Source: Eledone cirrhosa (taxonomy: Eukaryota). Taken from it: a stretch of DNA of 64,000 nucleotides. A program made the position numbers and the translations under genes. Below are positions 3,322 to 57,373 of this stretch, piece after piece (position 1 is the first letter of the stretch; each line of letters begins with the position of its first letter). The DNA lies in contig OZ024742.1 in NCBI GenBank assembly GCA_964016885.1, positions 247,318,001-247,382,000 of the forward strand. Reading direction: 5' to 3'. Below the pieces are notes generated by a model. It was given only the letters and a program-made list of their open reading frames with translations. It searched no databases and was not told the DNA's origin.

Positions 3322-6300
3322 CTACAGGATGGTATACAGAGAAGGCCCATTTACACGAGCCATTCTCCCTACTATCACCCACCTTTCATAAAACTGCCTG
3401 TGGCCAAGCACCTCTCTCTCCATTCTTATCCTTCTTCCGAAGTGATATCGGAAGAAGTAGACCAGACTATGGCCAGAGAGGAAGTTGCCTGACCTCAGAC
3501 CTTTCAATCGTGTCCACCAAACAACCTCTTTCAACATGGCTATTACGCACAGAAAAACCGCCTTTGCTTCCTTTGTGAAGAGGGGAGGCGGTTTGATTGT
3601 CATCAAGGACTCGGCGGTCAATTTAATCGGCGCCACCCGCGACAGCAGTCGTTCGGCGTAGCCCCACAGATCAGCCACGCCCGGACATTGCACCAATGCG
3701 TGCGCAACGGTTTCTTCGTGACGCACGCATCTAGGGCAAATCTTTTTTGAGGGATCCCTGCCCGGGCGCCCGTGTCTGTAGAGCCTCTCTCGAACGGGTA
3801 GAGCCCCCCGGTAGCACTGCCAGGCCAGTGACTTCTGGAAGTTGTCCATTGGTCCTGGGCCGAAAGTCCTACCGAACAGGCTGGCCAGTTCGTCTTTTTC
3901 CATGTCCAGCGACTCTCCAAGGGTGTCATCGCCCCTGCTAGCCACCAGCCCTCTATAGAATGATGAGGTGGATTCTCCACCGATGGCCTGGCCCGCTTGC
4001 CAGAGAGCCCTGAGCGCCTGAGCACACTCAGTGTGCCAGTCTCCCAGTTTTCCGGATATTTGCTTGACCCAGGACTGTAGCTCGGTGAGCGAGACGAGTC
4101 TCGGAAACGCTCGTTTCACGAACGGAGCCCACACCGGTTGACCAGTGAGGAATACCTGTAGGTGCCGTAGCCTTAATGCGTGCCTACGCATCATCAACCA
4201 CGGCATCCCCAGCCCTCCTTTCGAAGGTTGTTGGCAGCAGATGGATCTTCTCACCATAGGAGGGCGCTTCTTCCAAAGAAATTGGAAGAGCATGCGTTCC
4301 ATGGTGGTGAGTGTTTCCTTAGGGCAAGGCACGACAGTCAGGCGGTAGTAAGTGACGGACGCTATGTAAATGTTCGCCACCTCCGCCCGGCCTTTTAGGG
4401 ACAGCTTACACTTGGCCCATTTCTGGGTTAGTGCAAACACCTTGTTCGTAACCTCGTTCCAGTTCTTTTCCACCTGGAGGTCCGGTCCAAACCAGACCCC
4501 AAGCAACTTTACCGGGCCCTCCGTCCAGTGTCCGACGACACCGTCAGGAGGCATCGGTCTGCCTCTCCACGTTCCGAGTTGCAGCCCGATGGATTTTTCC
4601 CGGTTCAGTTTCGCTCCTGACAACCTTTCGTACTCCTCCAGTAAGGTACCGATCACCTCGATCTCCGAGTCGGTCGATACCATTACTGTTACGTCATCGG
4701 CGTAGGCCGACACCGCTTTGCTCAATCCTAGTTCCAGGGGGATACCCTGCAACAACTCCAACTTCCTCAGTAAAGGCTCGAGAGTCAATACGTACAGAAG
4801 GGAGGAGAGAGGGCACCCCTGTCGAATGGATCGTGTGATTTCGAACGCCTTCGAAAGGTAGCCGTTCACCTTGATCCTAGAACAGATGTGGTTGCTATGT
4901 AGGGCAGTGATCCAGCCTCTGAAAACAGGACCGAACCCAGCCGCCACTAGCACCGCATTCAGGTAACCATGGTCGACCCTATCGAACGCCTTAGACTGAT
5001 CCAAGTTGATCAGGGCCCCACCGAAGCCGGGTTTGTTGCCAACCCTCTCTATGATGTATCGCATGAGGTGGAGGTTATCGTGAATGGACCTGGATGGGAT
5101 AGCACATGTCTGCGCATCTCCCACCAGGCCACCCACGACAAGCGCCAACCTCTTTGCAAACACCTTGGCCAAAATCTTTAACTCTGTGTTTAGCAGGGTT
5201 ATGGGCCGAAAATTATTTATACTATCCCCCTTGTTCTCGTCCTTCCTCACCAGCGTGACTACGCCCTTGGCTACAGAACAAGGAATTCTCCCGTTCTGCT
5301 GCCAATTGCAGTAGACCGCTTCGAGGAGTTCGGAGAAGAAGACCGGCATTGCTAAATAAAGTTCGTAAGGTATACCATCGAGACCTGGAGATTTGCGTCT
5401 GCTGCATTGGCTCAGCGCATCTCCGTTCTCATCAGCCGAGATTGGTCCCTCGCAGGACTCTGCCTCTTCGCTCGAGAGACGCGGCAGGCCGTCGAGGTAT
5501 GGACCGAAATCCACGTCCCCACCCGGAGCCTCGCCTCCCCCGAACAATCGGGCAAAGTGCCTTTGAAAGGCCTCGCACATCTGCTTAGGCTCCCGGATCA
5601 CCCGTCCATCTTCGTCTTGCAACGACCGGATGGTGGATCGATTTCCACTCTTAGCTTCTGTCACGCGGGCCCATCCAACGGCTTTGGCCCACTCATTACC
5701 TAGAGCACGTATTTTACTTCGAATGACGCAGCCTTCGTGATTTGCATCGAAAAACTGGTTCAAGGCCGTCCTCGATGCCAGCACTCTGGCCACATCTTCG
5801 CTCTTGATTGCCTCTTCTAATTTACCTGTTAATTCTTTCTCGTTTCTATTCCTATCGGCAGCTAACATCTTGCTATAACTTATTGATTCTGTTCTAATCA
5901 CTCTTTTGAGAGATGCCCACCATCGGTTGTTGACGATTGCACCCGTCAACCTCTCCTTAACTAATCTGCTAATCCGGTTTCTGTAAGTCTCTTTTGCCGG
6001 TAAAGACAAATTAAGTTTCCAGTAACCGGGACCCTGTCTATGTGTTTTCTCGAGATTGACCACGCAGGTCACTAATTTGTGATCCGTGTAGCCAACCGTG
6101 CGCATTTCTGGACAGCTTAATATGTCCCTATCCTTACTTCTAACTAAGAATCTATCTAAGTACGATCTAGATTGACCACTGTGGTTTCTCCAAGTCCAGG
6201 TAGGCACAGTTGGAAAATCTAGTCGATATCTATCGACCAAGTTAAAACGGTCGAGTAACCCCTTGAGGCTGTTACACCCCCCTCTATTAGGACATGCTCC

Positions 6301-6749
6301 TGCATAGTCCCAACGTGCATCCAGGATGTCATTCCAATCCCCCGCTAGAAGCAGGGAACGCGACGTTCCCAGAAAAGTCTGAAGAAGTCGGGCCGTTCAG
6401 CTCCGTAAGGGGAGTAGACGGCGACCAGTCTGAAGGCCGCACTTTCACTACTGCTAACGTCTAGCACCAACAAACGACCCTCCGGGTCCGAGTGCACAAC
6501 CTGTACGGCAACACCCAGGTGTTTTTGCAGCAGTACGACAACCCCACCCCCACCTCCAGGTTGACAGAGAGATGCATACACCTCAAAGTCATCGAAGGTG
6601 GGGGCCAGCTGCCGCACGACGCTGATTCGAGTCTCACAGATAACCATTACATTTATACTACATGACCTGAGGTCATTTAGAAGCTTTGCTTGCTTCCAAG
6701 TTGAGCCCAGGCCACGTGCATTCAAACATCCTACTCTTAACACATCCAT
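3322..6749 (-). pseudogene. Tx1 ORF2 (APE endonuclease, reverse transcriptase, C-terminal Zn finger), one frameshift near 6370
   Basis: 6749-6345 has LNARG and ICET; 6240-3322 has YLDRFLV, TDH, NFRPITLLN, LDQSKAFDRV, QGCPLS, YADD and CPRC...ETVAHALVQC. Confidence 0.93.
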
Positions 6750-6782
6750 GTGGGCGGCAGAGCCAAAGGAGAGTGTAGAGAC

Positions 6783-8676
6783 CTACCTTTCCGCTTCCCG
6801 GGGTTCGGGTTGCACGACTTCCATGGGGTCGGGGGTGTTGGGTGAAGGGGTGTCTTGTGGTGGTGTGGGGTCGTCAGTGTGTGGTGGGGTTGGGGTGTTT
6901 GGAGTTGTGTTGGGGAGGGGAAGGGAGGGGGAAAGCTTTTTAGTAGGACGCGGTTTATGGGTTTGACAGAGGGTGGTCCTACGTCCTCCTTAAAATCCTT
7001 TTTTAGTTTTTGGTAGAGGTTCATTGGGATCTTTATTAGTTTTAAATGTGGGTAGTTTTCTGAGGAAACAAAGTTTACCCCTTCGGTTTGTACCGAAGGA
7101 TTATTGTATATGAGTTCATTTAATTTATTATTGTTTCTGTTGATGTAAGTATAGTGTAATGTCTTTTTTTCGGATGGTGTGAGTGTTTCGAAGAGGGGAG
7201 GGGCAGGTTTGGTTTTGTTTGTTGCTGGAGGGGTGTTTCCTGTTTTGCTGGATTGTGTTGAGATTTGGGTGGGTGTTGTTTGGCCTTGTGTGTTTTGCAC
7301 ATGTTTTCTTTTTTTCCTTTTAATCTGTCTGAAGGACTCCGTTTCTTCCTCCGAATTCGTTGGGTTATCTTCAGTGTTGGAGGGGAGAGGTATGTTTGCT
7401 GGTAATGTTTCCGTGTTGGTTTTCTTTGTGGGGGAGATGGATGTCACTATGTTAGACTGTGTTGTGTGTTGTGTCTGCGGTGGTTGTGTTGTTTTATTGA
7501 TTGAGAGGTTGGGTGGGCCTGTATTTTGTTTTGGGGTAATGTGTTGTGACTGTTTGTGTTGTGGCGGTGTTGTGGTTTTACTGAGGGACGGGTTGGGTGG
7601 GACTGAGTTTTGTTGTTTGTTTATCTGTTGTGGTGGTGGTGGTGGAGATGGTGTTGGTAGCAGGGTTTTCTTTTTGTTGAGTTGGGGACAAGCGGCCTTC
7701 AGGTGCCCTCTGCCTGCACAGATATGGCAGGACGGCCTTCTCCCCTCCACGCTAATGTTTATATACCCGTGGTCCTCTAATAGGATTCTGTCGGGTATTT
7801 GGGCGATGCGTTCAGGCTTCATTTGCACTACCAGCTCTATACCTGTTCCACTGAACGCATTGCCTGTGGTTTTCCCAATGGAAATCACGTTGTCATTCAC
7901 TGGATCGATAAAGCCAGCTATGAGCCAGCAGTAGTCCACATCTGGCATCATTGCATCCAGCCATATGCGTTGAGTTCTTTTCCATAAGATGGATAAAAGG
8001 TGAAATTTTTCGAACGAATCGGTGACAAAGCACATTTTTTTGCCGCCGATTCGTTCTTCATGATAATTGCTAGGCTTCCATACAGTCTGTCTTTTCTTAT
8101 GAAAGTGGTTTCATTAAGTACTTCTGTGAGTACTGTTTTGATATCTGCTTGAGAAGGCTGTTCAGGTTTTTTTGTACTGTTGTTGATGGTCCGAAACTTG
8201 ACCGTTCGGCTTTCAATGTCTTTCGTGAATTCTTGAGGCATTTTTACCGATAAAATACCATTCTCTCCTTCACTTATGTATTGTTTGGCGTCCGTGATCC
8301 TTCGTACCACATCTGAAATGTTTTCCGCTATATAAGTCAAAGATTTCATTGTTTTCTGTGCAAATGAAATCTTGTCGTCTGCTTTGCTTTCTGATATGGT
8401 GTTATTTTCAAATGTTATTTTTGTGTTTGTTGTGTCTTTGTTTGTGTTATTAGTATTGTCATGCAATTTTTCAAATTTTTTTTTTTCGTTGTTGGAATCC
8501 ATGTCCAGATTTGTGTTTTCGTCATTTTTTTTCTCCGCAGATTCGTCTGTTTTTATTTTAATTTTTCCTTCCTTCTCTATGACGTTAGTTTGGAAGGAAG
8601 GGGGGACTAAAGCGTGCGAGCTTACAACTCTTACCGCTGTCCCCCCACCACTATTTTCGTTCGCTGCGTTTAACAT
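6783..8676 (-). pseudogene. Tx1 ORF1 (gag-like nucleic acid binding protein), frameshifted
   Basis: ORFs 8676-7948 and 8035-6737 are colinear with the intact ORF1 at 30377-32149 (KDRLYGSL, GRRPSCHICAGRGHLKAACP); the true C-terminus MEVVQPEPREAER* lies in a shifted frame and stops at 6783. Confidence 0.88.
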
Positions 8677-8911
8677 TTCTGTTAGACGATTGAAATTTTT
8701 TACACAAAATTTTTTAAAACAGGTATTTCACCTCTAGGAGGGGTAAAGATGAGCTGACCCACCACCTGACAGTTCAGACGGAGGGCCAAGCTACACAATT
8801 GTATCAAAATTAAGTTTGAACTCACAAAATTTCCTTAATAAATTTGAACAAAACTTCTGTGCGAAGTGAATGACATCCACACTGTAGAACAGACGACAGC
8901 TAGATTAAAAT

Positions 8912-27431: not shown

Positions 27432-30043
27432 ACATGCTCTGGGAAACGAGGGAGCCAAAGCTGTTAGCTGGACCCGAGTGACGGAGGCGAAATGTGGCAA
27501 CAAGTCCACGATTCGGTCTTTGAAGGATCAAGACGGACGTGTGATACGTGAGCCGAAGCAAATGTGCGCGGCCTTTCAGCGGCACTTTGCTCAACTGTTC
27601 GGGCAGGGCGGCCCGCCGGGAGGGGCTATGGATTTCGCTTCATACCTCGACGGCCTACCGCGACTCTCGGACAGCGAGGCGAAGTTCTGCGAAAGGCCGA
27701 TTTCGGCTGCTGAGATAGGGGACGCACTGAGCCAATGCGGCATACGCAAATCTCCAGGTCTCGACGGTCTACCCTACGAATTTTGCGTAGCAATGCCGGA
27801 CTTGTTCCCCGGTCTCCTGGAAGCGGTATACTGCAACTGGCAGCAGAATGGGAGAATTCCCAGTTTTGTGACCAAGGGCGTAATCACTTTAGTCAGGAAG
27901 GACGAGAACAAGGGGGAAGGCAACTTCCGGCCTATAACTCTGCTCAACACAGAGTTACAGATTTTGGCCAAGGTGTTGGCAAAGAGGCTGGCGCTTGTCG
28001 TCGAAAACCTGGTGGGAGAAGCGCAGACATGCGCAATCCCGACCAGGTCCATACACGATAACCTCCACCTCATGCGATACATCATAGAGAGGGTAGGGTG
28101 TAAACCCGATTTCGGTGGGGTCCTGATCAACTTGGATCAGTCTAAGGCTTTCGATAGGGTTGACCATCGTTACCTGGATGCGGTGCTCGAGACGGCGGGC
28201 TTCGGTCCCGTGTTCAGGGGCTGGATTGCTGCAATGCACAACAGCAACATCTGCTCAAGGGTCAAGTTGAACGGCTACCTGTCGGAGCCGTTCCATATCA
28301 CGCGATCCATCCGACAGGGATGCCCTCTCTCCTCCCTTCTGTACGTACTGACTCTCGAGCCAGTACTGCGGAAGTTGGAGCTATTGCAGGGCATCCCTTT
28401 GGAACCGGGACTGCGAAAAGCGGCGTCGGCCTACGCCGACGATGTGACAGTAATGGCATCCAGCACCTCGCAAATCGGGGAGATCGGCACCTTACTGGAG
28501 GAATACGAAAGGTACACAAGAGCGAAGCTGAACCGGGACAAATCCGTCGGTTTGCAACTCGGAATGTGGAGAGGCAAAACGATGCCTTCCGATGACGTCG
28601 TCGGACGTTGGACGGAAGGACCGGTAAAGCTGCTTGGAGTCTGGGTTGGTCCCGACCTCCAGGTGGAGAAGAACTGGAACGAGGTGACGGCCAAGGTGTT
28701 TGCGCTCACCCAGAAGTAGGCCGAGTGCAAACTATCCTTGAATGGTCGAGCGGAGGTGGCGAACACTTTTATAGCGTCCGCCATCTACTACTGCTTGACC
28801 ATTGTGCCTTGTCCAGCCAAAACGCTCACCAAAATGCAGCGCGCGCTCTTCCAATTCCTTTGGAAGAAACGGGCTCCTTTGGTTAGAAGATCCATCTGCT
28901 GCCAACATCCTTCAAACGGAGGGCTGGGGATGCCGTGGCTGACGATGCGCAAACACGCGCCTAGGCTGCGGCACCTCCACGTATTCCTCACCAGACAACC
29001 GGTGTGGGCTCCGTTCGTGAGGCGAGCCTTCCCACGACTCGTCTCGCTGACCGAGCTGCAGACCTGGGTCAAGCAAAGACCGAGGAAAATGGACGAGTGG
29101 CAAATCGAATGTGCTCAGGCGCACACAGTCCTCTGGCAAACGGACCCGGCTATAAGTGGAGACTCCACTTTGACATTCTATAGAGGGTTGGTCCGCAGCA
29201 AGTGCGACGACACGCTCGGAGAAACTCTAGGCGTAGAGGAGGACGAACTGGCCAGTCTGTTCGGTAGGACCTTCCGCCCTGAACCAATGGTCAACTTTCA
29301 AAAGTCCCTGGCCTGGCAGTGCTACCGAGGAGCTCTACCAGTTCGAGACAAGCTCTACAGACACGGGCGCCCGGGTAGGGACCCTTCAAAAAGATCTGTC
29401 CGAGATGCGTGCGCGACGAGGAAACCGTCGCACACGCATTTGTACACTGCCCGGGCGTTACCAACCTGTGGGGCTATGTAGAACGACTATTGTCGCGGGT
29501 GGGACCAATCCAGTTGACCACCGAGTCCATTGTCATGATCAAACCGCGACCCTCCTTCAAAAACGAGGGAGAGGCGGTTTTCCTATGTGTTATGGCTATG
29601 GTGAAAGAGGTTATATGGTGGACGAGGTTAAAAGGGCTGAGGTCAGACACCTTTCTCTCCGGCGAGCAACTGATTCGTTTTGTCAAATATCATTTTGGAA
29701 GAAGAATCAGGATGGAGAGAGAGGTGCTGTATCCCAGAATATTTTATAAAAGGTGGGTGAATGTGGCAAAGATGGCCCGAGTGGTTGGGCCTTCTCTCTA
29801 TATAAACCTGTAGGTTGAGGAAAAAGAGGAAGAGAGGAGGGGAGTACTCACTCTTGGTGCTCCTGGAGATGAGCGTTGTACATTTCTTTTGGGGTGTGTA
29901 CAACCCCTGTGTAACACCTCCGCCCTATTGGGGATTTCAATTGTTATTTGTTGTTTTATTAATAGTTTTATTTTCATATACCTGTATGTAAACTCCCCAT
30001 TTGAATTTGTCCCCTTCTTTTTTGCCCTTGTGGCTAATAAAAT
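27432..30043 (+). mobile_element. 5'-truncated Tx1-clade LINE (copy B)
   Basis: RT ORF 27478-28719 (QGCPLS, YADD), in-frame stop at 28717, continuation 28738-29481, frameshift into 29409-29813; (CTAT)n on both flanks (27353-27431, 30044-30160). Confidence 0.93.
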
Positions 30044-30161: not shown

Positions 30162-33100
30162 TGGGATGGCCACACGCGTATAACTTGCTGAGTAAGTTCT
30201 GTTTAAATTTCTATAGAAATTCTTGTCTGATAACTTTAATTTTTGTACCATTTTGTAGAGGGACTGCCAGGTCAAACTTTGATCAGGTCAGTCTCTCAAC
30301 ATATTCTACGCCTTTAGGCGAAATAGTTAAACAAAAAAAAAAAGTTTTTTCTTGTTGAAAAGTCAATATTTTTTAAATGGCCGAAGCTTCTTCACCAAAA
30401 TTCAAAGGAGGAAAGGGGAAGATGAACTTACAGCTTCCCCCTGCCACTGTCACAGTAGCAGAGGTCAAGAAGAAAGGTCAGCCAGAGGAAGAATTCTCTC
30501 CATCTGTTAACCAACAACTTGACGTTGCCATGGCAACAACCCAAAGAACCAGCAGCAACAGCAACAACAACAACAATGCGACGGACGAAAACAACACCAA
30601 TAACAATAACAATAACAACAACAACAAGACCAATAACGGTGACAACACCACCAACGACAACAACAACACAAACAAACAAAATTTCTCCTTCGCCGAGACG
30701 ACAAGGAAAACCCTCGACTATCTGCCAGTAGATATAACAAAAGCGAAGGAGCTACTGGCGGATGCGAAAAAATATATAGTGTACGGAGAAAATGGTTCAT
30801 TCACAATCCATTCCCCCCCCCCGGAACTAAAAAGCCAGAGACTCCTAAACACGGTCATGTTTAGGACAATCTCGAACAAAAGTAAAAAACCAGCTCAACC
30901 ATCACAGAGCGAGAGAGAGCTGGTTTTAAAAGACGTCATGAAGGACATCACCTTCATTCAGAAGGATAGACTCTACGGGAGTCTATCCATTCTCATGAAG
31001 GACAGGGACACAGCAGTGAAACTGTCCATCAAACCAATCACATCCAACGCATACACCTTCTACCCTACGTACATGGGTAGAAGAACACAAAAAATAAAAA
31101 TCCACACCATCCTGCCGATTATGGACATATGGTGGGTTTTGACAGGTTTTCTGGACCTGGAGGATGACATGCTGGTGTCCATGGGAAAGGCATCGGGTGA
31201 CGCGTTCAGTGGAACGAGCCTCGAACTTGTAGTTCAAATGAGGCCCGAAAGGATCGCCCAGATCCCTGAACGCGTCATACTGGATGATCTAACCTTCATC
31301 AACATTGCCGTTGAGGGTAGACGGCCCTCGTGTTACCTCTGCGGAACCAGAGGTCACCTGAGGGCTGTCTGTCCCCAACTTAATAAGAAAACCCCAATCC
31401 TGCCTACACCACCAACAACTGCACAACAAACACAATCACCACAACTACCACTACAAAAACAACCACCACAGCTCAAACCAAAACAAAACAATGTCCAACC
31501 CATCCCCTCCACTCAAAAAACAAAAACAATTTCCAAAACACCCGTACCGCAAACACAACCCGAAAATATACCCCTCCCCTCCAACGCGGAAGATGACCCT
31601 AGTTCGTCGTCAGACGAGGAGGAGAACTTCCACACAATCAAAAGAAAAAAAAGAAAACACACCTCAGACACACAAATGAAAAAAACCCCTCCCCAAAACA
31701 TAACACTGACACCAACACAAAAGAGCTCACAACAGCAAACAAAAAACACCACACAAAAACAAAAACATGCATACACATACATAAACACAAGAAACAAAAA
31801 ACTGTTAAACATTGTGTACAACAACAATCTAATAAAAACACAAGGGCCTAACTTCACCCAGGCAGGGGATTTCCCCCACCTCAAAATGATTAAGGCCCCA
31901 CAGGACACCTATAAAACTTTAAAAAACAATTTTAAAGAGGACGTGGGTCCCCCCTGCGTCGGGCCCATTAACCGCGTCCTCCTAAAAAACTATGCCACTC
32001 CCTCCCCAAACACCCACACAACTCCAAGCTCCCCAACCACACAACACACTGATGCCCCCACACTTCCACAAACCACCACCCCACCCAACAACCCATCCCC
32101 CACCCTAATGGAAATTGTGCAGCCCGATACCCGGGACGCAGAGAGGTAAGTGCCTTTTCTCTTCACCACCAACATGGCTATGCTAAGAGTAGGCTGTTTA
32201 AATGCGCGTGGCCTGGGCTCAACTTGGAAGCAAGCAATGCTTCTAAATGACCTCAGGTCACAACGTATAGATGTGATGGTTATTTGCGAGGCCCGGATCA
32301 GCAACGTGCGACAGCTGGCCCCCACCTTTGATGACTTTGAGATGCACGCATCTCTCTGTCAGTACTTTACAAGTGCGACGACGTGCTCGGACAGACGCTA
32401 GGCGTCGAAGACGACGAGCTCACCAGTCTGTTCGGTAAGAGTTTCCTCCCGGGACCTATGGACAACTTCCAGAGGTCCCTGGCCTGGCAGTGCTACCGAG
32501 GAGCTCTACCCGTTCGTGACAAGATCTACAGGCGCGGACGCCCCGACAGGGATCCTTCGAAGAGGGCGTGTCCAAGATGCGAGCAGGACATTGAAACCGT
32601 CTTGCACGCAATTGTACACTGCCCAAGCGTAAGCGACCTGTGGAACTATGCAGAACAAGTGCTGTCGTGTATGGGACAAATCCAGTTGACTGCCGCCAGC
32701 CTCTTTCAAAAACGAAAGAGAGGCGGTTTTCCTCTGAACAGTGGCTATGGTGAAAGAGGTTATATGGTGGACGAGATTGAGAGGACTGAGGACAGATGCC
32801 TTTCTCTCCGGACAAGAATTGATTCCCTTCTTTAAGTATCACTTTAGAAGGAGAATCAGGGTGGAGAGAGAGGCACTGCACCCCAGTAAATTTACTGAAA
32901 GCTGGGCGAATGAAGCGAAAATGGCCAAGTGATTCGGCCTTCTCTGTTTATAAGCCTGTAGCTTAAAAAAGCGAGCAAAACGAAGAAAGGAGCACTTGCA
33001 CAACACGCACCTGAAGTTGAGGGTTGTTATATCGACGGGGTATTAAAGAACCCATTTGTGGCGCCTCCCCCTATTGGGGATTTCGATTGTTATAATTGTT

Positions 33101-33195
33101 TGTTTCAATATTTTTACACGACTGTATAGAAAATCCCCGGCATGTGTCTTTGTATTGTCTCGTTTTCTTGTGCGCCCTTATGGCAAATAAAGAAA
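30161..33195 (+). mobile_element. Tx1-clade LINE (copy C): complete ORF1, ORF2 with large internal deletion
   Basis: 5'UTR homologous to copy A; ORF2 start MAMLRVGCLNARG at 32174 joins near 32362 to the C-terminal LAWQCYRG/CPRC region; ends AATAAAGAAA. Confidence 0.92.
30377..32149 (+). CDS. Tx1 ORF1 protein, 590 aa, uninterrupted
   Basis: CYLCGTRGHLRAVC (CX2CX4HX4C) knuckle, basic KRKKRK patch, low-complexity N/T/Q/P linkers; colinear with copy A ORF1. Confidence 0.88.
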   Translation: MAEASSPKFKGGKGKMNLQLPPATVTVAEVKKKGQPEEEFSPSVNQQLDVAMATTQRTSSNSNNNNNATDENNTNNNNNNNNNKTNNGDNTTNDNNNTNKQNFSFAETTRKTLDYLPVDITKAKELLADAKKYIVYGENGSFTIHSPPPELKSQRLLNTVMFRTISNKSKKPAQPSQSERELVLKDVMKDITFIQKDRLYGSLSILMKDRDTAVKLSIKPITSNAYTFYPTYMGRRTQKIKIHTILPIMDIWWVLTGFLDLEDDMLVSMGKASGDAFSGTSLELVVQMRPERIAQIPERVILDDLTFINIAVEGRRPSCYLCGTRGHLRAVCPQLNKKTPILPTPPTTAQQTQSPQLPLQKQPPQLKPKQNNVQPIPSTQKTKTISKTPVPQTQPENIPLPSNAEDDPSSSSDEEENFHTIKRKKRKHTSDTQMKKTPPQNITLTPTQKSSQQQTKNTTQKQKHAYTYINTRNKKLLNIVYNNNLIKTQGPNFTQAGDFPHLKMIKAPQDTYKTLKNNFKEDVGPPCVGPINRVLLKNYATPSPNTHTTPSSPTTQHTDAPTLPQTTTPPNNPSPTLMEIVQPDTRDAER

Positions 33196-33239
33196 TATAT
33201 CTATGTAGCTATCTACCTATCGTCCTATCTACCTATTTC

Positions 33240-43835: not shown

Positions 43836-43854
43836 GTTGTTGTTGCTAGTATTA

Positions 43855-46075
<2,221 letters not shown>

Positions 46076-46095
46076 TATTATCATTATTATAAAAA

Positions 46096-46207
46096 ATCCC
46101 GCCGAGGTTAACTTTGCCTTTCATCCTTACGGGGTCGATAAAATAAAGTACCAGTAATGTACTGGGTAATTGCTGGCCTTGTGCCAATAGTAGAAACAAT
46201 TATTATT
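46096..46207 (+). mobile_element. 5'-truncated tRNA-derived SINE; further copies at about 48975-49103 and 62350-62452
   Basis: aatcccgccgaggttaactttgcctttcatccttacggggtcgataaaataaagtaccag...agaaacaattatt. Confidence 0.82.
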
Positions 46208-46224
46208 AAATTTGTTAATTATTA

Positions 46225-51639: not shown

Positions 51640-52330
51640 CAGACAGTTAAAATGCATATTCTTCACTTACATATTAAACGTTTGAAAGTGCACCAAAACT
51701 CCAACGTCACCCCTTCTCCGAGAGACACCCATCGTTGCAACCTCTGTGCAGGAGTCTGCAAGTCCCTATCTGCACCAACAGTCCATGTCCGCGCTGCTCA
51801 TGCTTAAGTAACAAACAATGGCATTAGTCGATAAGCGATGGCATATGTCAGGTCGATCGTCAGCGCTACTGGTATAATGTAACCCGTATAACATGTACAT
51901 GGTCGGGTCGCTGTCGATTAAACCGGTAATCCCACCCAACTTGCTTGATGATGAGGGTGATTTTGGACACCCTGTGTGATGAAAGACAAAACCCATCAAA
52001 GGGCGGAGGAGCTCAGGAGAGTCAAGGGCCATCCAATAGAGCGACTGCCAGTTTTCCTTAAGACATCTCTCTAAGAGAAGGTCACCCTGATATAAAACAT
52101 GCGACTTCGTTCGCATCCAATGATCTAGATCAGTTCTACTTTTGGGGTAGATGCATAGATGTCTAGAGAGAGTGTTTTCCCCAGTGCAAAGACTTTCTTT
52201 TCTTATAAATGCTTCAAGAACAGGTATCGCTTGATTTGTGGCATTGGTTTGCGATATGCATGGCATTACTCGCCATAGGCAAGCCCATTACAAAAATAAA
52301 AAAGCCACGTCTATGATGTTCATGATTAAG
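51640..52330 (+). mobile_element. Probable RTE-like LINE fragments (C-terminal C2H2 finger then UTR-like sequence)
   Basis: HRCNLCAGVCKSLSAPTVHVRAAH at about 51730-51805 resembles the terminal Zn finger of RTE ORFs. Confidence 0.4.
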
Positions 52331-52465
52331 TATCAAACGATGGCAATACTCAAAACCTAGTTGCAGCCATCATCAGCATGTGTGTATGTATGTATGTATG
52401 TATGTATGTATGTATGTATGTATGTATGTATGTATGTATGTATGTATGTATGTATGTATGTATGT

Positions 52466-52748
52466 TCTTCTGGTTTTATAATTTCACAAAGTTTTACCAA
52501 TAGAGAGAGAGTCGGTTTCTAACATAGACACAAGACTCTCTCATTGGAATTTATACAACATCAACTAGGTAGATATGTATGTATGCATTCATGTGTAGAT
52601 ATGGATGTTATTGTATGTGTGGATGTGTATGTTTTGAGTTGTGTGTGTGCATGTGTATATGCTTTGCATCTGTACATGTGTATATGCAGTTATTGGATGC
52701 AACATTTTTGGAATGTTTTACATATTTTTACTGTTCCATTAATGGATT
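52466..52748 (-). mobile_element. 3' stub of the adjacent R4-clade LINE, bounded by (TATG)n
   Basis: Matches 52763-53060; encodes QSINGTVKICKTFQ; (TATG)n at 52384-52465 and 52749-52762. Confidence 0.85.
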
Positions 52749-52762
52749 GTATGTATGTATGT

Positions 52763-55700
52763 CCTTCTGGTTTTATAATTTCGCAAATTTTTGCCAATAG
52801 AGAGAGAGTTGGTTTCCAACATAGTTACAAGACTCTCTCATTGGAATTTGCATAACATCCCATCAACTAGATAGATATGTATGCCTGTCTTCATGCATGC
52901 ATGTGTAGATATGGATGTTATTGCATGTGTGGATGTGGATGTTTTGAGTTGTAATTGTGCATGTGCATACGCTTTGTATCTGTACCTATGTATATGCAGT
53001 TATTAGATGCAAAATCTTTGGAATGTTTTACATATTTTTACTGTTCCATTAATGGATTGTACTTGTAATTTCCTAACTAGTTGTGTTCTTTCTGTTCCTG
53101 TGAAGCCTAGCTTCTCAAGATTTATATTGAGGCAGTTACTAACATATTCCAGTGCCCCAATAATCACAGGCATAAATCTGAAGGTGTAATCAGGGTGGAG
53201 TGTCTGCAGATTTCTCATCAGTTCTGCATAAATATTCTCCTTTTCACTAAGCTTTGATATTGTATTGGCATCTGCTGGGTAGCTAATTTCCACTACTGTG
53301 CATGCTTTCTTCTCCCTGCTCCATATCATAATATCTGGTCTGTTATGCCTGCATTTTATTGGGGTTTTTACTGGAACATTCCACCAGTACTCTTTTATAT
53401 TATGTACATGGATGTCTTCCACATTGCTGTAGCTTTTAATGTGTTTATTATCGGGGATATCTTTTTTACGAACTGCATTGTACAGTGTTTTGGCCCCTAC
53501 ATCATGCCTCATAGGTAGATAGTACCGCGATGACATCTTTGGACAGCTGCTGATGACATGGGTAATATCCTCGATGTTAGTTCTGCAGAGTCTGCACTTG
53601 TTATCACATCTAGGTGTTTTGCCTGCATCCCTATCTCTTTTGTGAATCAGGTATTTCGTGTTAATCTCCTGTTCTTGGATTGCAAAAGCGTATCCTTCAA
53701 AGTGAGAGCCAATATAGCGGTTGTTGGTCCAAGATAGACTACTTTCCTTATCTATATTACACTCACTCTGGAGCTTCCTGGCAACATATCCATGCATGAG
53801 ATTTTGCTGATAAGTATGCAGTTTTTCATCCATGGATTCACTGCGATACTACTGAGCGACTTCCCTGGGTGTGAGTTTTTGATTATCACACAGGAGGGAA
53901 TATCTCTCGAGGAGTTCCTTCCCAACTCTCATGATCTTATCTGTTTCATGCAGATAGACTTGCTCGAGAAACGGGCTTCTACGCTTTGAGGTTCGTAGAT
54001 GTTGTTGGAGAGATATGATGCGACATTCAAATGTTGTCTGGACTGATGTTAGGCCTCTGCCTCCCTGCTTACGTTTCAAGTAAAGGCGGTCTATGTCACT
54101 GTTGATGTGGAAGTTTCCGGTGTTGTTTTGTATTTTTCGAGTTCCAACATCAACTGCTCGGATTTCGTCTATCGTCCAATTGAGTATTCCAAACGTTGGT
54201 GTTAGGACAGGCACAGCAAACACATTGTGAGCCACTGTTTTGTTTTGCGCAGAGAATTCCGATGACCAAATCTTTCTTAATCGGGTGTAGTATTCCCTGG
54301 TTACGCGTTCTTTATTACAGATACCATTATAGGATATGTTCTTATCTAACCCCAGGTATCTGTAGCAGTCCTCATCAGATATTGGTGAAACAGTTAGGCC
54401 ATTGATGACAATGTTGCTAGATTGGGTTGTTGTTTTTCTCCGCTTTACAGTCATGTATGAGCATTTATCTTGGCCAAACTCCATTCCTATATCCTTTGAG
54501 AACGTTGTAACCAGGTCAAGATTTTTCTTCATCCACTCCATGTTCTTGGCATAGAATTTCAGATCGTCCACAAAGAAATAATGGGTTAGGTTCGTATTTC
54601 TGTCCTCCTTTGAGCCAATAAAGTATCCCTCACATTTCTTGAGCAGAAAGGACAAGGGGTTTAATGACAAGATGAATAAAATCACAGAGAGAGACTGTCC
54701 CACTGAAATATACCCCTGCAATATTTTATTTTATCAGTGAAAATAGAGTCCTCCCTCTCCCTCTTTACCCTCAGGATAATAGCCCAAGAAGAAGACAGCC
54801 TTTCTATGGCTCTGACAATAATGTCTGGGACTTTAGCAAGTGGGAGGGCTTCTATCATCCAGTGGGGAACAGAATCGAAATCTTTCCTGTAGTCCATCCA
54901 GACTGTAGCCATATTCCTCCTAAGTTGTCGCACCTCCGACATCGCAGTTTTGTTGATTAGGAGTTGTTCAGCAGATCCCCAAACTCCTTTCTTTCCAGCT
55001 GCTTTTTCATCTGTGATGATGTTATTATTTTCACAGTGATCTTGGAGGAATAGGTTCAGGCAGGCTGTATACATCTTATACATCAGGTTCTGGCATGCAA
55101 TGGGTCGGTAGTTTTTTGTCAAGTGGGTGTCTTTGTTCTTGGAGACCAGTAATGTTTGTGCTAATGTCAACCATTCTGGTATACGTGTATCTCCCTTAAG
55201 AACTTGTTTGTAGAGGTCAGTAAGATACCTCCGATAGAATATCAGTTTGTTGTGCCAGTAGCTGACAATAATGTCTCTTATTGGTGTTTTCTTATCTTGG
55301 AGTTTTTCCTATCACAGTCTCGAGGGTACCCTGACTTATTTTATATGTTTTTGTTGTAGTGTAGGAGCAATAGTTCTTTCGGATTTCTCTTAGCCACACT
55401 GCATCTTGGTTGAAATTCTTCTTTTCACCCCATATTTTTCTCCAAAAGGAATTTATGTCTTTCTGAGATGGGCCTCAGTGACACTTATTATTTTGCCCTT
55501 CATATCTCTATAGACTGATGTTTGGTTTCGTCTGAATCTTTTATTAAGCACTTTTCTTTCATCTACCTTCTTCAGGTATCGGCGTTTTTCGCTAACAGCT
55601 CTCAATTCTTGTTTGAGGGTGATCAGCTTATATTGAAGAGTTCTGGTTCTACTGTTACCAAACATCGTCTCTATTTTACTTTTCACTCTTTTTTGGTGAG

Positions 55701-56638
55701 GAGTGAGGTTTTTTTTGTGTTTGTTTGCATGTAAGGAGCATTGTCACATTATCGTAGGTCAGCAATCTTTTTTTATATTTTAGTTATATATGATGCTATT
55801 TTTGGTGGTGTTCTGTTCTTGTTAATATCTCTGCTATCACCAAGATAATGCTTCACTGTCGTTGCTAAGGCATATAAATAGGCGTTGATTTGCCTAAATG
55901 TTGGGGTTTTTATCCGTCGTAAATATTCATCCTCTATTTCGTCAATAACACGTAATATTTCATTATTTGTTTTTTAATTAAACATTGTCTTTTTAAAACG
56001 TACAGGAAGAGAAATATTTATACATGAATTAATTTCTCTCTGGAAGATTTCGTTGAGGGAAAATTTCAATCGTTTATACTTTTGATTATCATTATCGATA
56101 GTATTTTCCACAATAGTCGAGGTACACGTGGTGTCAAATTTCTTCGATTATTATTATTATTATCGATAGTGTTTTCCCCAGTATTCGAGGTAGACTTAGA
56201 TGGTACAAGTGGTGTCAAATTTCTTACAGGCATAGTTGTTTCAAGGCACTGTTCGACCTGGCTGCTAGGAAGTCTAGTAGCATGGCGACCTGTAGCACGT
56301 GCTGTTGATAACATGTTTGTTGTGGGGGGGCTTACAATTAATAATATTTATCTTATTTTTACGTTCAACAAACGTCGCATGTTGGCGTAATTGTTTCGCT
56401 GTTAAATAGTTTAGCTCTGGGTGTATTTCGTTCCAGTGTAGCTTCAGTCTGTTCATATAGCCAATGGAGGGATTGTTTTTTGCCATTTTATAACAATTAA
56501 ATAAATCATTATTAAGTTCGCAACTCCAAGAGAAATGCGATTTATAATTTCGGTTCCTTCTGCAGCTACAACTGAACAAACAAAGTTTGTTTACCTTCCT
56601 TGTTATTTGTCTTCAGTACTTCCTTAATTTTGTTGTTG
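52763..56638 (-). mobile_element. Near full-length R4/Dong-like RLE LINE with frameshifts
   Basis: N-term GYMNRLKLHW; RT NYRPIAC, GIFQ.DSLS, FFVDDLK, YRYLG; CCHC CRLC...HVISSC; RLE RHD, HNRPDI, VVEIS, KENIY; (TATG)n on both flanks. Confidence 0.92.
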
Positions 56639-56762
56639 ATGTATGTATGTATGTATGTATGTATGTATGTATGTATGTATGTATGTATGTATGTATGTAT
56701 GTATGTATGTATGCATGTATGTATGTATGTATGTATGTATGTATGTATGTATGTATGTATGT

Positions 56763-56952
56763 TATCTCTTTCTCTTAATTTCGAGTATATTTTTTGGACC
56801 GGCCACCTTCCTGGTGGCAAGATTGTAAAAGAAAAGAAATTGTCATCCCTTGAATCGCAAGAATGTTTTGCAAATTTTGAAGGTGCCAGCTATCGCAGCC
56901 ATTTGTAGACTATGAATTAGGGAGCTTCGCTTTTTGTCCGCAAATCCAAGTT
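56763..56952 (-). mobile_element. 3' stub of a second, related R4-clade family inside (TATG)n
   Basis: Minus translation LGFADKKRSSLIHSLQMAAIAGTFKICKTFLRFKG* aligns with LGFTGTERTQLVRKLQVQSINGTVKICKTFQRFCI*; different 3'UTR; (TATG)n at 56639-56762 and 56953-57075. Confidence 0.8.
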
Positions 56953-57373
56953 TATGTATGTATGTATGTATGTATGTATGTATGTATGTATGTATGTATG
57001 TATGTATGTATGTATGTATGTATGTATGTATGTATGTATGTATGTATGTATGTATGCATGTATGTAGGTATGTATTTATTAGAAAACTTTTTCAGTAAAA
57101 TTCTACTAAATCCCTAATCGTGTTCTAGTTTTATCTTATTGCTCATATAGATTTTTCTATATTGTTTTTTATTACATATAATGTCATTCTTTGAAGCTGT
57201 AAACTCTCTAATCGTATCATCTCCGTTTCTAGACTTTCATGATTTTATCTTCGCGACATCATTATTGTAGCCAAAGAAAGGCGTTTTGACTGCGTTTCCC
57301 ATAGGCCATTACATAACCTTGATAGCTGCACCACATAACTTTCACTTTCGTGAACCAAAAGATATGAGAGGGA

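What the first reader, a model, noticed from the sequence alone, without database searches (positions are those of the whole stretch)
52384..57075. R4/Dong-like RLE LINEs that appear to target (CATA)n, with two families in one tract
Seen: three same-orientation inserts (52466-52748, 52763-56638, 56763-56952) are each bounded on both sides by (TATG)n. The third encodes a diverged C-terminus (GTFKICKTFLRF versus GTVKICKTFQRF) with an unrelated 3'UTR, so it is a separate family using the same site. The other R4-like relics here end in (TAA)n-like tracts. Known: Dong targets (TAA)n, and ACAY-repeat targeting is known for the APE-type R1-clade Waldo elements. Inference: an RLE lineage that moved to a (CATA)n target, convergent with Waldo.
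Basis: partly seen in the sequence, partly recalled or inferred. Interest (0 to 1): 0.75.

Follow-up and report, generated by a model that had tools for sequence, protein, structure and literature searches.

The report
Dong-like retrotransposons targeting four-letter repeats
Three dead, front-truncated copies of two jumping-gene families sit stacked in one CATA repeat, as most sampled copies of these multi-thousand-copy families do; they belong to a separate branch of the Dong/R4-like retrotransposons that likely cuts four-letter repeats (CATA here, CTTA in relatives elsewhere) instead of the usual three-letter TAA.

Summary
Observation confirmed. Three minus-strand, 5'-truncated inserts of two single-ORF RT + restriction-like-endonuclease LINE families (A, B; about 44-50% amino-acid identity) lie in one (CATA)n tract. 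Genome-wide, 4,610 of 5,669 exact A ends and 3,801 of 5,070 exact B ends run straight into CATAC. In samples, CATA also lies at the 5' junction (A 26/39 and 15/24; B 34/38 and 16/22; background under 1%), so it is a target and not only a tail. The stub is not a local duplication (97.5% to a remote copy, 86.8% to its neighbour). A young family in the same genome keeps (TAA)n (30/30). The interpretation needs one correction: this is not a local switch. A and B are not sisters; they lie in a deep clade (100/100) apart from Dong-like TAA elements, and relatives from other hosts sit in (CATA)n or (CTTA)n. A fourth, opposite-strand non-coding retroelement shares the tract. Whether protein or RNA-target pairing sets the specificity is untested. 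I found no description in print, but Repbase and key papers were unreadable. The scan noted this before on other pieces of this genome.

The parts
51849..52378 (+). Element S: ~530-nt non-coding retroelement, opposite orientation to A/B, (TATG)n tail; older (74-79% to other copies); likely a non-autonomous RTE-type element (clade not tested here)
   Evidence: (4,594 first-look candidates); truncated copies of subfamily S2 keep the end next to this tail
52383..52465 (.). (TATG)n/(CATA)n tract 1: tail of S and 3' flank of the family-A stub
52466..52748 (-). Family A, 283-nt 5'-truncated stub (last codons + 3'UTR); 4-nt microhomology with the repeat at its 5' junction; independent insertion
   Evidence: 97.5% to a remote copy vs 86.8% to the neighbour
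52749..52762 (.). Short (TATG)n tract 2, 14 nt, between the two family-A copies
52763..56638 (-). Family A, 3,876-nt copy lacking about 230 nt at the 5' end; dead (stops, frameshifts); 4-nt microhomology at the 5' junction
56337..56570 (-). N-terminal three-helix domain, predicted Myb/SANT-like (candidate DNA-recognition module)
   Evidence: (frame 2), alignment, model of the family-B homologue, fold search (Z 5-6.6, suggestive only)
53849..55308 (-). Reverse transcriptase domain remnants (FFVDDLKFY motif)
   Evidence: Pfam RVT_1 E 3.7e-9 and 2.4e-4
53230..53596 (-). CCHC zinc knuckle and PD-(D/E)xK restriction-like endonuclease core (RPD..E..K)
   Evidence: whole-protein model of family B matches R2 structures best
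56639..56762 (.). (TATG)n tract 3: 5' flank of the long A copy and 3' flank of the B stub
56763..56952 (-). Family B, 190-nt 5'-truncated stub (C-terminus + own 3'UTR); young family (98-99% to other copies); an intact 1,174-codon frame exists elsewhere (L116)
56953..57075 (.). (TATG)n tract 4: 5' flank of the B stub

Best explanation
The three inserts are independent, 5'-truncated copies of two single-ORF RT + restriction-like-endonuclease retrotransposon families that sit in (CATA)n in one fixed orientation, likely because their own protein binds and nicks that repeat. Shown: anatomy, repeat on both sides, fixed strand, fixed 3' junction phase, independent origin of the stub, and a clade apart from TAA-type Dong-like elements whose members elsewhere sit in (CATA)n or (CTTA)n. 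Inferred, by analogy with R2: the N-terminal Myb-like domain and the endonuclease recognise the repeat and nick the TATG strand at about TATG^TATG (one base uncertain; TAAG^TAAG for the CTTA relatives); the freed 3' end primes reverse transcription at the RNA's 3' end; the cDNA, often incomplete, is joined to the upstream half of the repeat, helped by 1-4 nt of microhomology. Every insertion leaves repeat on both sides, so the site stays a target and copies of A, B and the opposite-strand element S pile up head to tail.
For: 3' junctions genome-wide: A 4,610 of 5,669, B 3,801 of 5,070 followed by CATAC within 2-3 nt; reversed-pattern controls 0-4. Similarity-picked copies, strict 8-mer rule within 20 nt: A 37/39 at 3' and 26/39 at 5'; B 31/38 and 34/38; none with TAA, none with the opposite strand. 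First 30 copies by position on C1: A 28/30 and 15/24, B 26/30 and 16/22 (6 and 8 copies ran off the locus). Truncation points are scattered along the element, so 5' CATA cannot come from the element. Full-length copies start directly after CATA: A 23 of 29 by eye, five of the six misses being one duplicated locus; B 6 of 6. Background 0.5-0.9% per 20-nt window; in the window (TA)n is about nine times commoner. Microhomology at 37 scored of 51 examined truncated junctions: mean 1.51 nt vs 0.82 expected, reached in 5 of 10,000 draws. 27 of 69 B ends have an A end within 5.1 kb (null mean 1.8, max 9), 25 of 27 on the same strand. Internal control: family T, 1,216-codon frame, about 98% identical copies, TAA at 30 of 30 3' ends, CATA at 0. 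Relatives: L270, L271 with CATA on both sides; L269 with CTTA on both sides; L266, L267 at the 5' side and L272, L274, L276 at the 3' side. Tree and AU tests. Domains.
Against: Not every junction fits. After inspection many misses are later insertions, internal deletions, A/B chimeras or decayed repeat, but some 5' junctions are plainly non-CATA (L010, L013, L171, L175, L035, L122, L309, L312, L333, L344; L324 has the repeat in the opposite strand), and about a fifth to a quarter of exact 3' ends lack a perfect CATAC. No empty (pre-insertion) allele was found, and a target-site duplication cannot be read inside a repeat. No data here separate protein recognition from RNA-DNA pairing. The Myb-like assignment is below the aligner's own threshold (Z 6.6 or less; no Pfam or Foldseek hit). 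The metagenome relatives come from two record sets and short contigs, one contig per family.
Confidence: 0.72

Rival explanations
1. RNA-guided targeting: the endonuclease is loose, and the site is chosen because read-through (CAUA)n at the RNA's 3' end pairs with a nicked (TATG)n strand and primes there. The target would then be inherited through the RNA tail.
For: Every copy's transcript would read into CATA; the fixed strand and the clean split between CATA, CTTA and TAA families fit this too. The unrelated element S uses the same repeat from the other strand, so the repeat is open to more than one machinery.
Against: The 3' junction phase is nearly fixed (30 of 39 A copies have the identical junction), which suits a defined cut. 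In R2, bottom-strand cleavage is set by the element's endonuclease (PMC5035012, passage). The clade keeps a conserved N-terminal three-helix domain.
Confidence: 0.2
2. Tail plus later rearrangement: (CATA)n is made by slippage at the 3' end at arbitrary sites, and the 5' repeat arises later by duplication, deletion or recombination between tails.
For: Some loci are tandem or segmental duplications (L066-L069/L073, L339/L342, L355-L358), and a minority of 5' junctions lack CATA.
Against: The young family B (96-99% identity) already has CATA at 34 of 38 5' junctions at scattered truncation points; the window stub is closer to remote copies than to its neighbour; in the window the tract is the tail of the much older element S.
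Confidence: 0.05
3. Recent local switch: a TAA-type Dong of this genome changed its specificity to CATA once and gave rise to A and B.
For: TAA-type and CATA-type families coexist in this genome and in this window.
Against: AU tests reject A+B+T+R42 as one clade (p 1.7e-9) and A+B as sisters (p 4.4e-6); CATA- and CTTA-flanked relatives from other hosts branch among them.
Confidence: 0.03

Closest known systems
Dong (R4 clade; Bombyx Dong, DongAg, snail DongBg, ostracod Dong1/2)
   Same: Single ORF with RT, CCHC knuckle and restriction-like endonuclease; N-terminal Myb/SANT-like domain without zinc fingers (described in PMC7998251, passages); microsatellite on both sides; about 4.1-4.2 kb.
   Different: Target (CATA)n or (CTTA)n instead of (TAA)n (PMC3812793; PMC7998251 says TAA in 'most' insects, molluscs and cnidarians). 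Only 32-36% identical over RT-RLE to Dong-like proteins of insects and crustaceans and separated from them by a 100/100 branch. No 5' HDV-like ribozyme found, but that test was inconclusive.
Octopus 'Dong-R4' LINE families in genome annotations (PMC13282606, PMC9115989, PMC8967140, PMC10294476)
   Same: Abundant, partly young Dong-R4 families are annotated in octopus genomes; the closest named homologue of family B is from Argonauta hians (64% over the tree columns).
   Different: The passages and term searches I ran in these papers give no target sequence and do not split the group; whether A or B is among their consensus sequences was not checked (libraries and supplements not seen).
Waldo (WaldoAg1/2, WaldoFs1; R1 clade, APE endonuclease; clade recalled)
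   Same: Targets ACAY microsatellites, the class that includes (ACAT)n (PMC3812793).
   Different: Unrelated endonuclease type and architecture; the match is in the target only.
R2 (R2Bm, R2Tg and others with solved structures)
   Same: Best structural matches of the family-B model (Foldseek E 3e-34 to 3e-28, TM 0.51-0.57); source of the inferred nick-and-prime mechanism.
   Different: 16-20% identity; R2 has N-terminal zinc fingers and targets 28S rDNA.
Other microsatellite-targeting RLE families: Togen (TG)n, some HERO families
   Same: RLE elements in microsatellites (PMC4640811, passages).
   Different: Other clades and other repeats; no sequences were available to me for comparison.

Membership tests
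RLE-type non-LTR retrotransposon | One ORF with RT followed by CCHC knuckle and PD-(D/E)xK endonuclease, no APE domain | tested here: met
   Intact frame P0001; Pfam RVT_1 and no Exo_endo_phos; CCHC and RPD..E/D..K aligned in A, B, T and relatives; best fold matches are R2
RLE-type non-LTR retrotransposon | Fixed 3' end, variable 5' truncation (target-primed reverse transcription signature) | tested here: met
R4 clade | RT phylogeny groups it with named R4-clade references (R4, Dong, Rex6, EhRLE) | tested here: inconclusive
   No sequence named R4, Dong, Rex6 or EhRLE was obtained. Similarity is far higher to Bombyx, Euphydryas, Pediculus, Anolis and Diaphorina Dong-like proteins (E about 1e-113 to 1e-130) than to R2 (1e-28), but the clade is sister to, not inside, that group; HERO, NeSL and CRE were not in the tree
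R4 clade | N-terminal diverged Myb/SANT-like domain, no N-terminal zinc fingers | tested here: met
   Three-helix domain aligns with family T (W, W, HPE, L invariant); pLDDT 83; top structural rows mostly Myb/SANT at Z 5-6.6, below the tool's threshold of 8; no zinc-finger motif seen in the N-terminus
Dong (narrow sense) | Insertion into (TAA)n | tested here: not met
   0 of 39 A and 0 of 38 B copies have TAA at either junction; family T has it at 30 of 30 3' ends
Dong / R4 | [quoted passage not shown] | tested here: inconclusive
   No Rfam hit at gathering score; my own descriptor found none in A, B, five relatives, S2 or T, but it had no positive control
RLE site-specific elements | Sequence-specific nicking of the target by the encoded endonuclease | not testable with these tools
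   needs a biochemical assay
Waldo (R1 clade) | APE endonuclease, two ORFs | tested here: not met
   single ORF, RLE at the C-terminus, no APE hit
Bipartite non-autonomous RTE (element S) | 5' and 3' ends shared with an autonomous RTE | not tested

The most novel reading that the evidence does not exclude
An undescribed, old and widespread sister lineage of Dong that specialises in tetranucleotide microsatellites and has switched between (CATA)n and (CTTA)n more than once. It would give a natural series of closely related, compact (about 1,170 aa) single-protein gene writers whose targets differ by one base, with an intact member in this genome, so the residues that set RLE target specificity could be mapped directly.
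Probability: 0.5. Interest if true: 0.68.

Novelty: new variant of a known kind. Interest (0 to 1): 0.52.

Why it matters
How RLE retrotransposons change target is an open question, studied mostly in R2. Here TAA-, CATA- and CTTA-specific relatives exist, two target classes are young in one genome, and intact frames are available for both, so domain swaps can test directly whether the Myb-like domain, the endonuclease or the RNA tail sets the site. It also explains a visible part of this genome's structure: more than 10,000 copies that stack in CATA tracts together with an opposite-strand element. It is still a change of target within a known mechanism, not a new kind of system.

Tried and rejected
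Local tandem duplication of the stub: rejected. Empty-site search among the loci held: 72 flank pairs, only other element-repeat-element stacks, no true empty allele. Rfam at E up to 1 on 7 loci: only microsatellite-driven miRNA and snoRNA matches below gathering score. HDV-like descriptor: no hit, no positive control. Pfam, PDB-profile and Foldseek searches of the N-terminal domain: no significant hit. ESM Atlas: sequence not held. GTDB scan: one weak hit, uninformative. Papers not held: Fell 2025, Xiong and Eickbush 1993, Biedler 2015. In one search the row 'OUT_RTElike' is mislabelled; it is 79% identical to the L1/Tx1-like ORF at 3322-6396. Rows dropped before trees: 2 short proteins; 121 thinned to 69; 30 of these dropped and 9 metagenome rows added; 29 of 48 kept. 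R38 is a long, unreliable branch and was left out of the later trees.
Full report
Observation. The window is G000:C3:247318001-247382000 in a 3.0-Gb genome. The closest named homologue of family B is from Argonauta hians and Dong-R4 is reported almost only from cephalopods among molluscs (PMC10294476, passage), so the host is likely an octopod (inference). The long one carries RT remnants (Pfam RVT_1), a CCHC knuckle and an RPD..E..K endonuclease core. It lacks about 230 nt of the 5' end and has stops and frameshifts. The stub is 86.8% identical to its neighbour but 97.5% to a copy on another contig, so it is an independent insertion. The third insert is a young second family, B (98-99% to 39 other hits). 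One B copy has an intact 1,174-codon frame (L116, P0001). A and B share about 44% amino-acid identity over the whole frame and about 50% over RT-RLE, and no UTR sequence.

Target or tail. Exact 3'-end patterns occur 5,669 times for A and 5,070 times for B; 4,610 and 3,801 of these are followed by CATAC within 2-3 nt. The 5' side is the test. Among copies picked by 3'UTR similarity (39 of A, 38 of B, window copies excluded) a CATA 8-mer lies within 20 nt of the 3' junction in 37 and 31 and of the 5' junction in 26 and 34; none has TAA or the opposite strand. Among the first 30 copies by position on C1 the figures are 28/30 and 15/24 for A, 26/30 and 16/22 for B (some A loci are duplicates of each other). 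Background is 0.5-0.9%. Inspection of the misses shows later insertions or chimeras with CATA further upstream (L157, L173, L045), internal deletions and decayed repeat, and a residue of about ten truly non-CATA 5' junctions. Truncation points are scattered along the element, so the 5' repeat belongs to the site. Full-length A starts right after CATA in 23 of 29 loci (by eye; five misses are one duplicated locus) and full-length B in 6 of 6. Truncated junctions show more microhomology to the repeat than chance (mean 1.51 vs 0.82 nt; 37 scored of 51 examined; 5 of 10,000 draws); both A junctions in the window have 4 nt. A and B cluster: 27 of 69 B ends have an A end within 5.1 kb (null mean 1.8, max 9), 25 on the same strand. 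No empty allele was found.

Internal control. A Bombyx protein query found a young family T with a 1,216-codon frame, the family of the relic at 43.8-46.0 kb. It has (TAA)n at 30 of 30 3' ends and CATA at none, and (TAA)n before most visible truncation points. The relics at 38.5 and 42.1 kb also end in TAA-like tracts in most other copies. So two target classes coexist without mixing.

Relatives and tree. A scan of metagenome contigs with an alignment of 24 homologues gave 33 loci; I looked at the flanks of 16. L270 and L271 (45-46% to B) have (CATA)n on both sides. L269 has (CTTA)n on both sides, L266 and L267 on the 5' side, L272, L274 and L276 on the 3' side; L266 follows another element's 3' end across a CTTA tract. 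L268, L277, L279 and L285 end before a junction. L280, a more distant (36%) match not placed in my trees, has (TAA)n at its 5' side; L282, L284 and L286 showed no tetranucleotide flank. The CATA and CTTA loci come from two record sets with unknown hosts. Trees on RT-RLE split this clade from the group holding the Bombyx, Euphydryas, Pediculus, Diaphorina, Anolis, Penaeus, Plodia and Armadillidium proteins and family T, at 100/100 in the careful tree. AU tests reject A+B+T+R42 (p 1.7e-9) and A+B as sisters (p 4.4e-6). CATA and CTTA each need two changes on the tree, though a single origin of CATA is not excluded by the well-supported branches. No sequence named R4, Dong, Rex6 or EhRLE was available, so placement in the R4 clade rests on similarity (E about 1e-113 to 1e-130 to Dong-like proteins; 1e-28 to R2) and on the shared N-terminal domain.

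Protein. The family-B model (pLDDT 83) matches R2 structures best. Residues 22-80 form a three-helix bundle that aligns with family T; folded alone, its top structural rows are mostly Myb/SANT domains at Z 5-6.6, which is suggestive only; Pfam, a PDB profile and Foldseek gave nothing significant. This fits the diverged Myb/SANT domain reported for R4/Dong (PMC7998251, passages). A 5' HDV-like ribozyme, known for Dong and R4 (PMC3774820, passages), was not found, but the test had no positive control.

Mechanism. Shown: fixed strand, fixed 3' phase (30 of 39 A copies share one junction), repeat on both sides, 5' truncation with microhomology. Inferred from R2 (PMC5035012, passage, and general knowledge): the protein nicks the TATG strand at about TATG^TATG, primes reverse transcription there, and joins the cDNA to the upstream repeat. 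The site survives on both sides and is reused. The main rival is that pairing of a read-through (CAUA)n RNA tail with the nicked strand chooses the site; sequence alone cannot exclude it.

Fourth insert. At 51849-52378 lies a ~530-nt non-coding element S (4,594 first-look candidates, 74-79% identity), with CATA or related simple repeat at the ends of most copies. Truncated copies of a younger subfamily keep the end next to the window's first tract, so S reads on the plus strand, opposite to A and B, and is also joined to the repeat at its truncation points. An earlier AI note prompted this polarity test. Its likely RTE origin is recalled and taken from earlier notes and PMC5786205 (passages), not tested. 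Because S is the most diverged of the four, the tract probably predates the A and B insertions (inference).

Comparison and novelty. Known microsatellite targets: Dong (TAA)n, Waldo ACAY, Mino, Kibi, Koshi (PMC3812793, passage); Togen (TG)n and some HERO (PMC4640811, passages). Octopus annotations list Dong-R4 families without a target in what I saw: PMC13282606 (part 1 of 3 plus term search), PMC8967140, PMC9115989 and PMC10294476 (passages). PMC13708176 was seen as passages only. Nine full-text searches returned no paper describing a CATA- or CTTA-specific RLE element. Repbase Reports, Kojima and Fujiwara 2003 and 2004, Fujiwara 2015 and Fell 2025 (a survey of RLE elements) were not read, and no supplements were seen; any of them may already hold this. 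I reached the CATA/CTTA reading before opening earlier findings; at least five notes on other pieces of this genome say much the same and are not independent support. Verdict: real, well supported as a target preference, a new variant of a known kind; interest 0.52.

Noticed in passing
window 51849-52378 (+); subfamilies in L086, L037, L147: Very abundant non-coding retroelement S that shares the TATG/CATA repeat in the opposite orientation; its 5' end looks like a three-way junction whose third stem has different but still pairing sequences in three subfamilies (by eye); autonomous partner not found.
   Followed up: partly
window 27433-30043 (+), 3322-8727 (-), 30170-33200 (+): L1/Tx1-like APE elements (the first two 79% identical in RT) bounded by (CTAT)n on both sides; the third follows the same (CTAT)n tract and ends in (CTAC)n. 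Possibly a (CTAT)n-targeting Tx1 family.
   Followed up: partly
L251-L265; relic at window 43845-46020 (-): Family T: young (about 98%) TAA-specific Dong-like family with many intact 1,216-codon frames and a long 5'UTR that contains a SINE-like fragment; the (CA)n at 43951-44109 lies inside the relic's 3'UTR.
   Followed up: partly
window about 46095-46210; after TAA tails in L181, L183, L184, L194, L229: A ~170-nt SINE-like element that repeatedly adjoins (TAA)n tails and also interrupts family-A copies (L173, L174).
   Followed up: no
L116:1216-1300, L270, L271, L269, L267: A short GGAYGTG motif 20-45 nt from the 5' end is shared by B and four metagenome relatives but not clearly by A; role unknown.
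   Followed up: no
G000:C10 about 25.9-26.4 Mb (L066-L069, L073, L077, L079): Family-A copies recur every 50-70 kb; five share the same junction, which suggests a segmental tandem array.
   Followed up: no
L004, L045, L324: A/B chimeric junctions without a repeat between them, and one B copy whose 5' flank is the repeat in the opposite strand.
   Followed up: no
L122:1399-3933, L123:282-2807: RT frames of about 840 codons with a PHD-finger match just after the RT domain (Pfam E about 3e-6); clade not determined.
   Followed up: no
L027, L034, L088: Further RLE fragments 61-76% identical to family B in protein, i.e. more members of the same clade in this genome.
   Followed up: no
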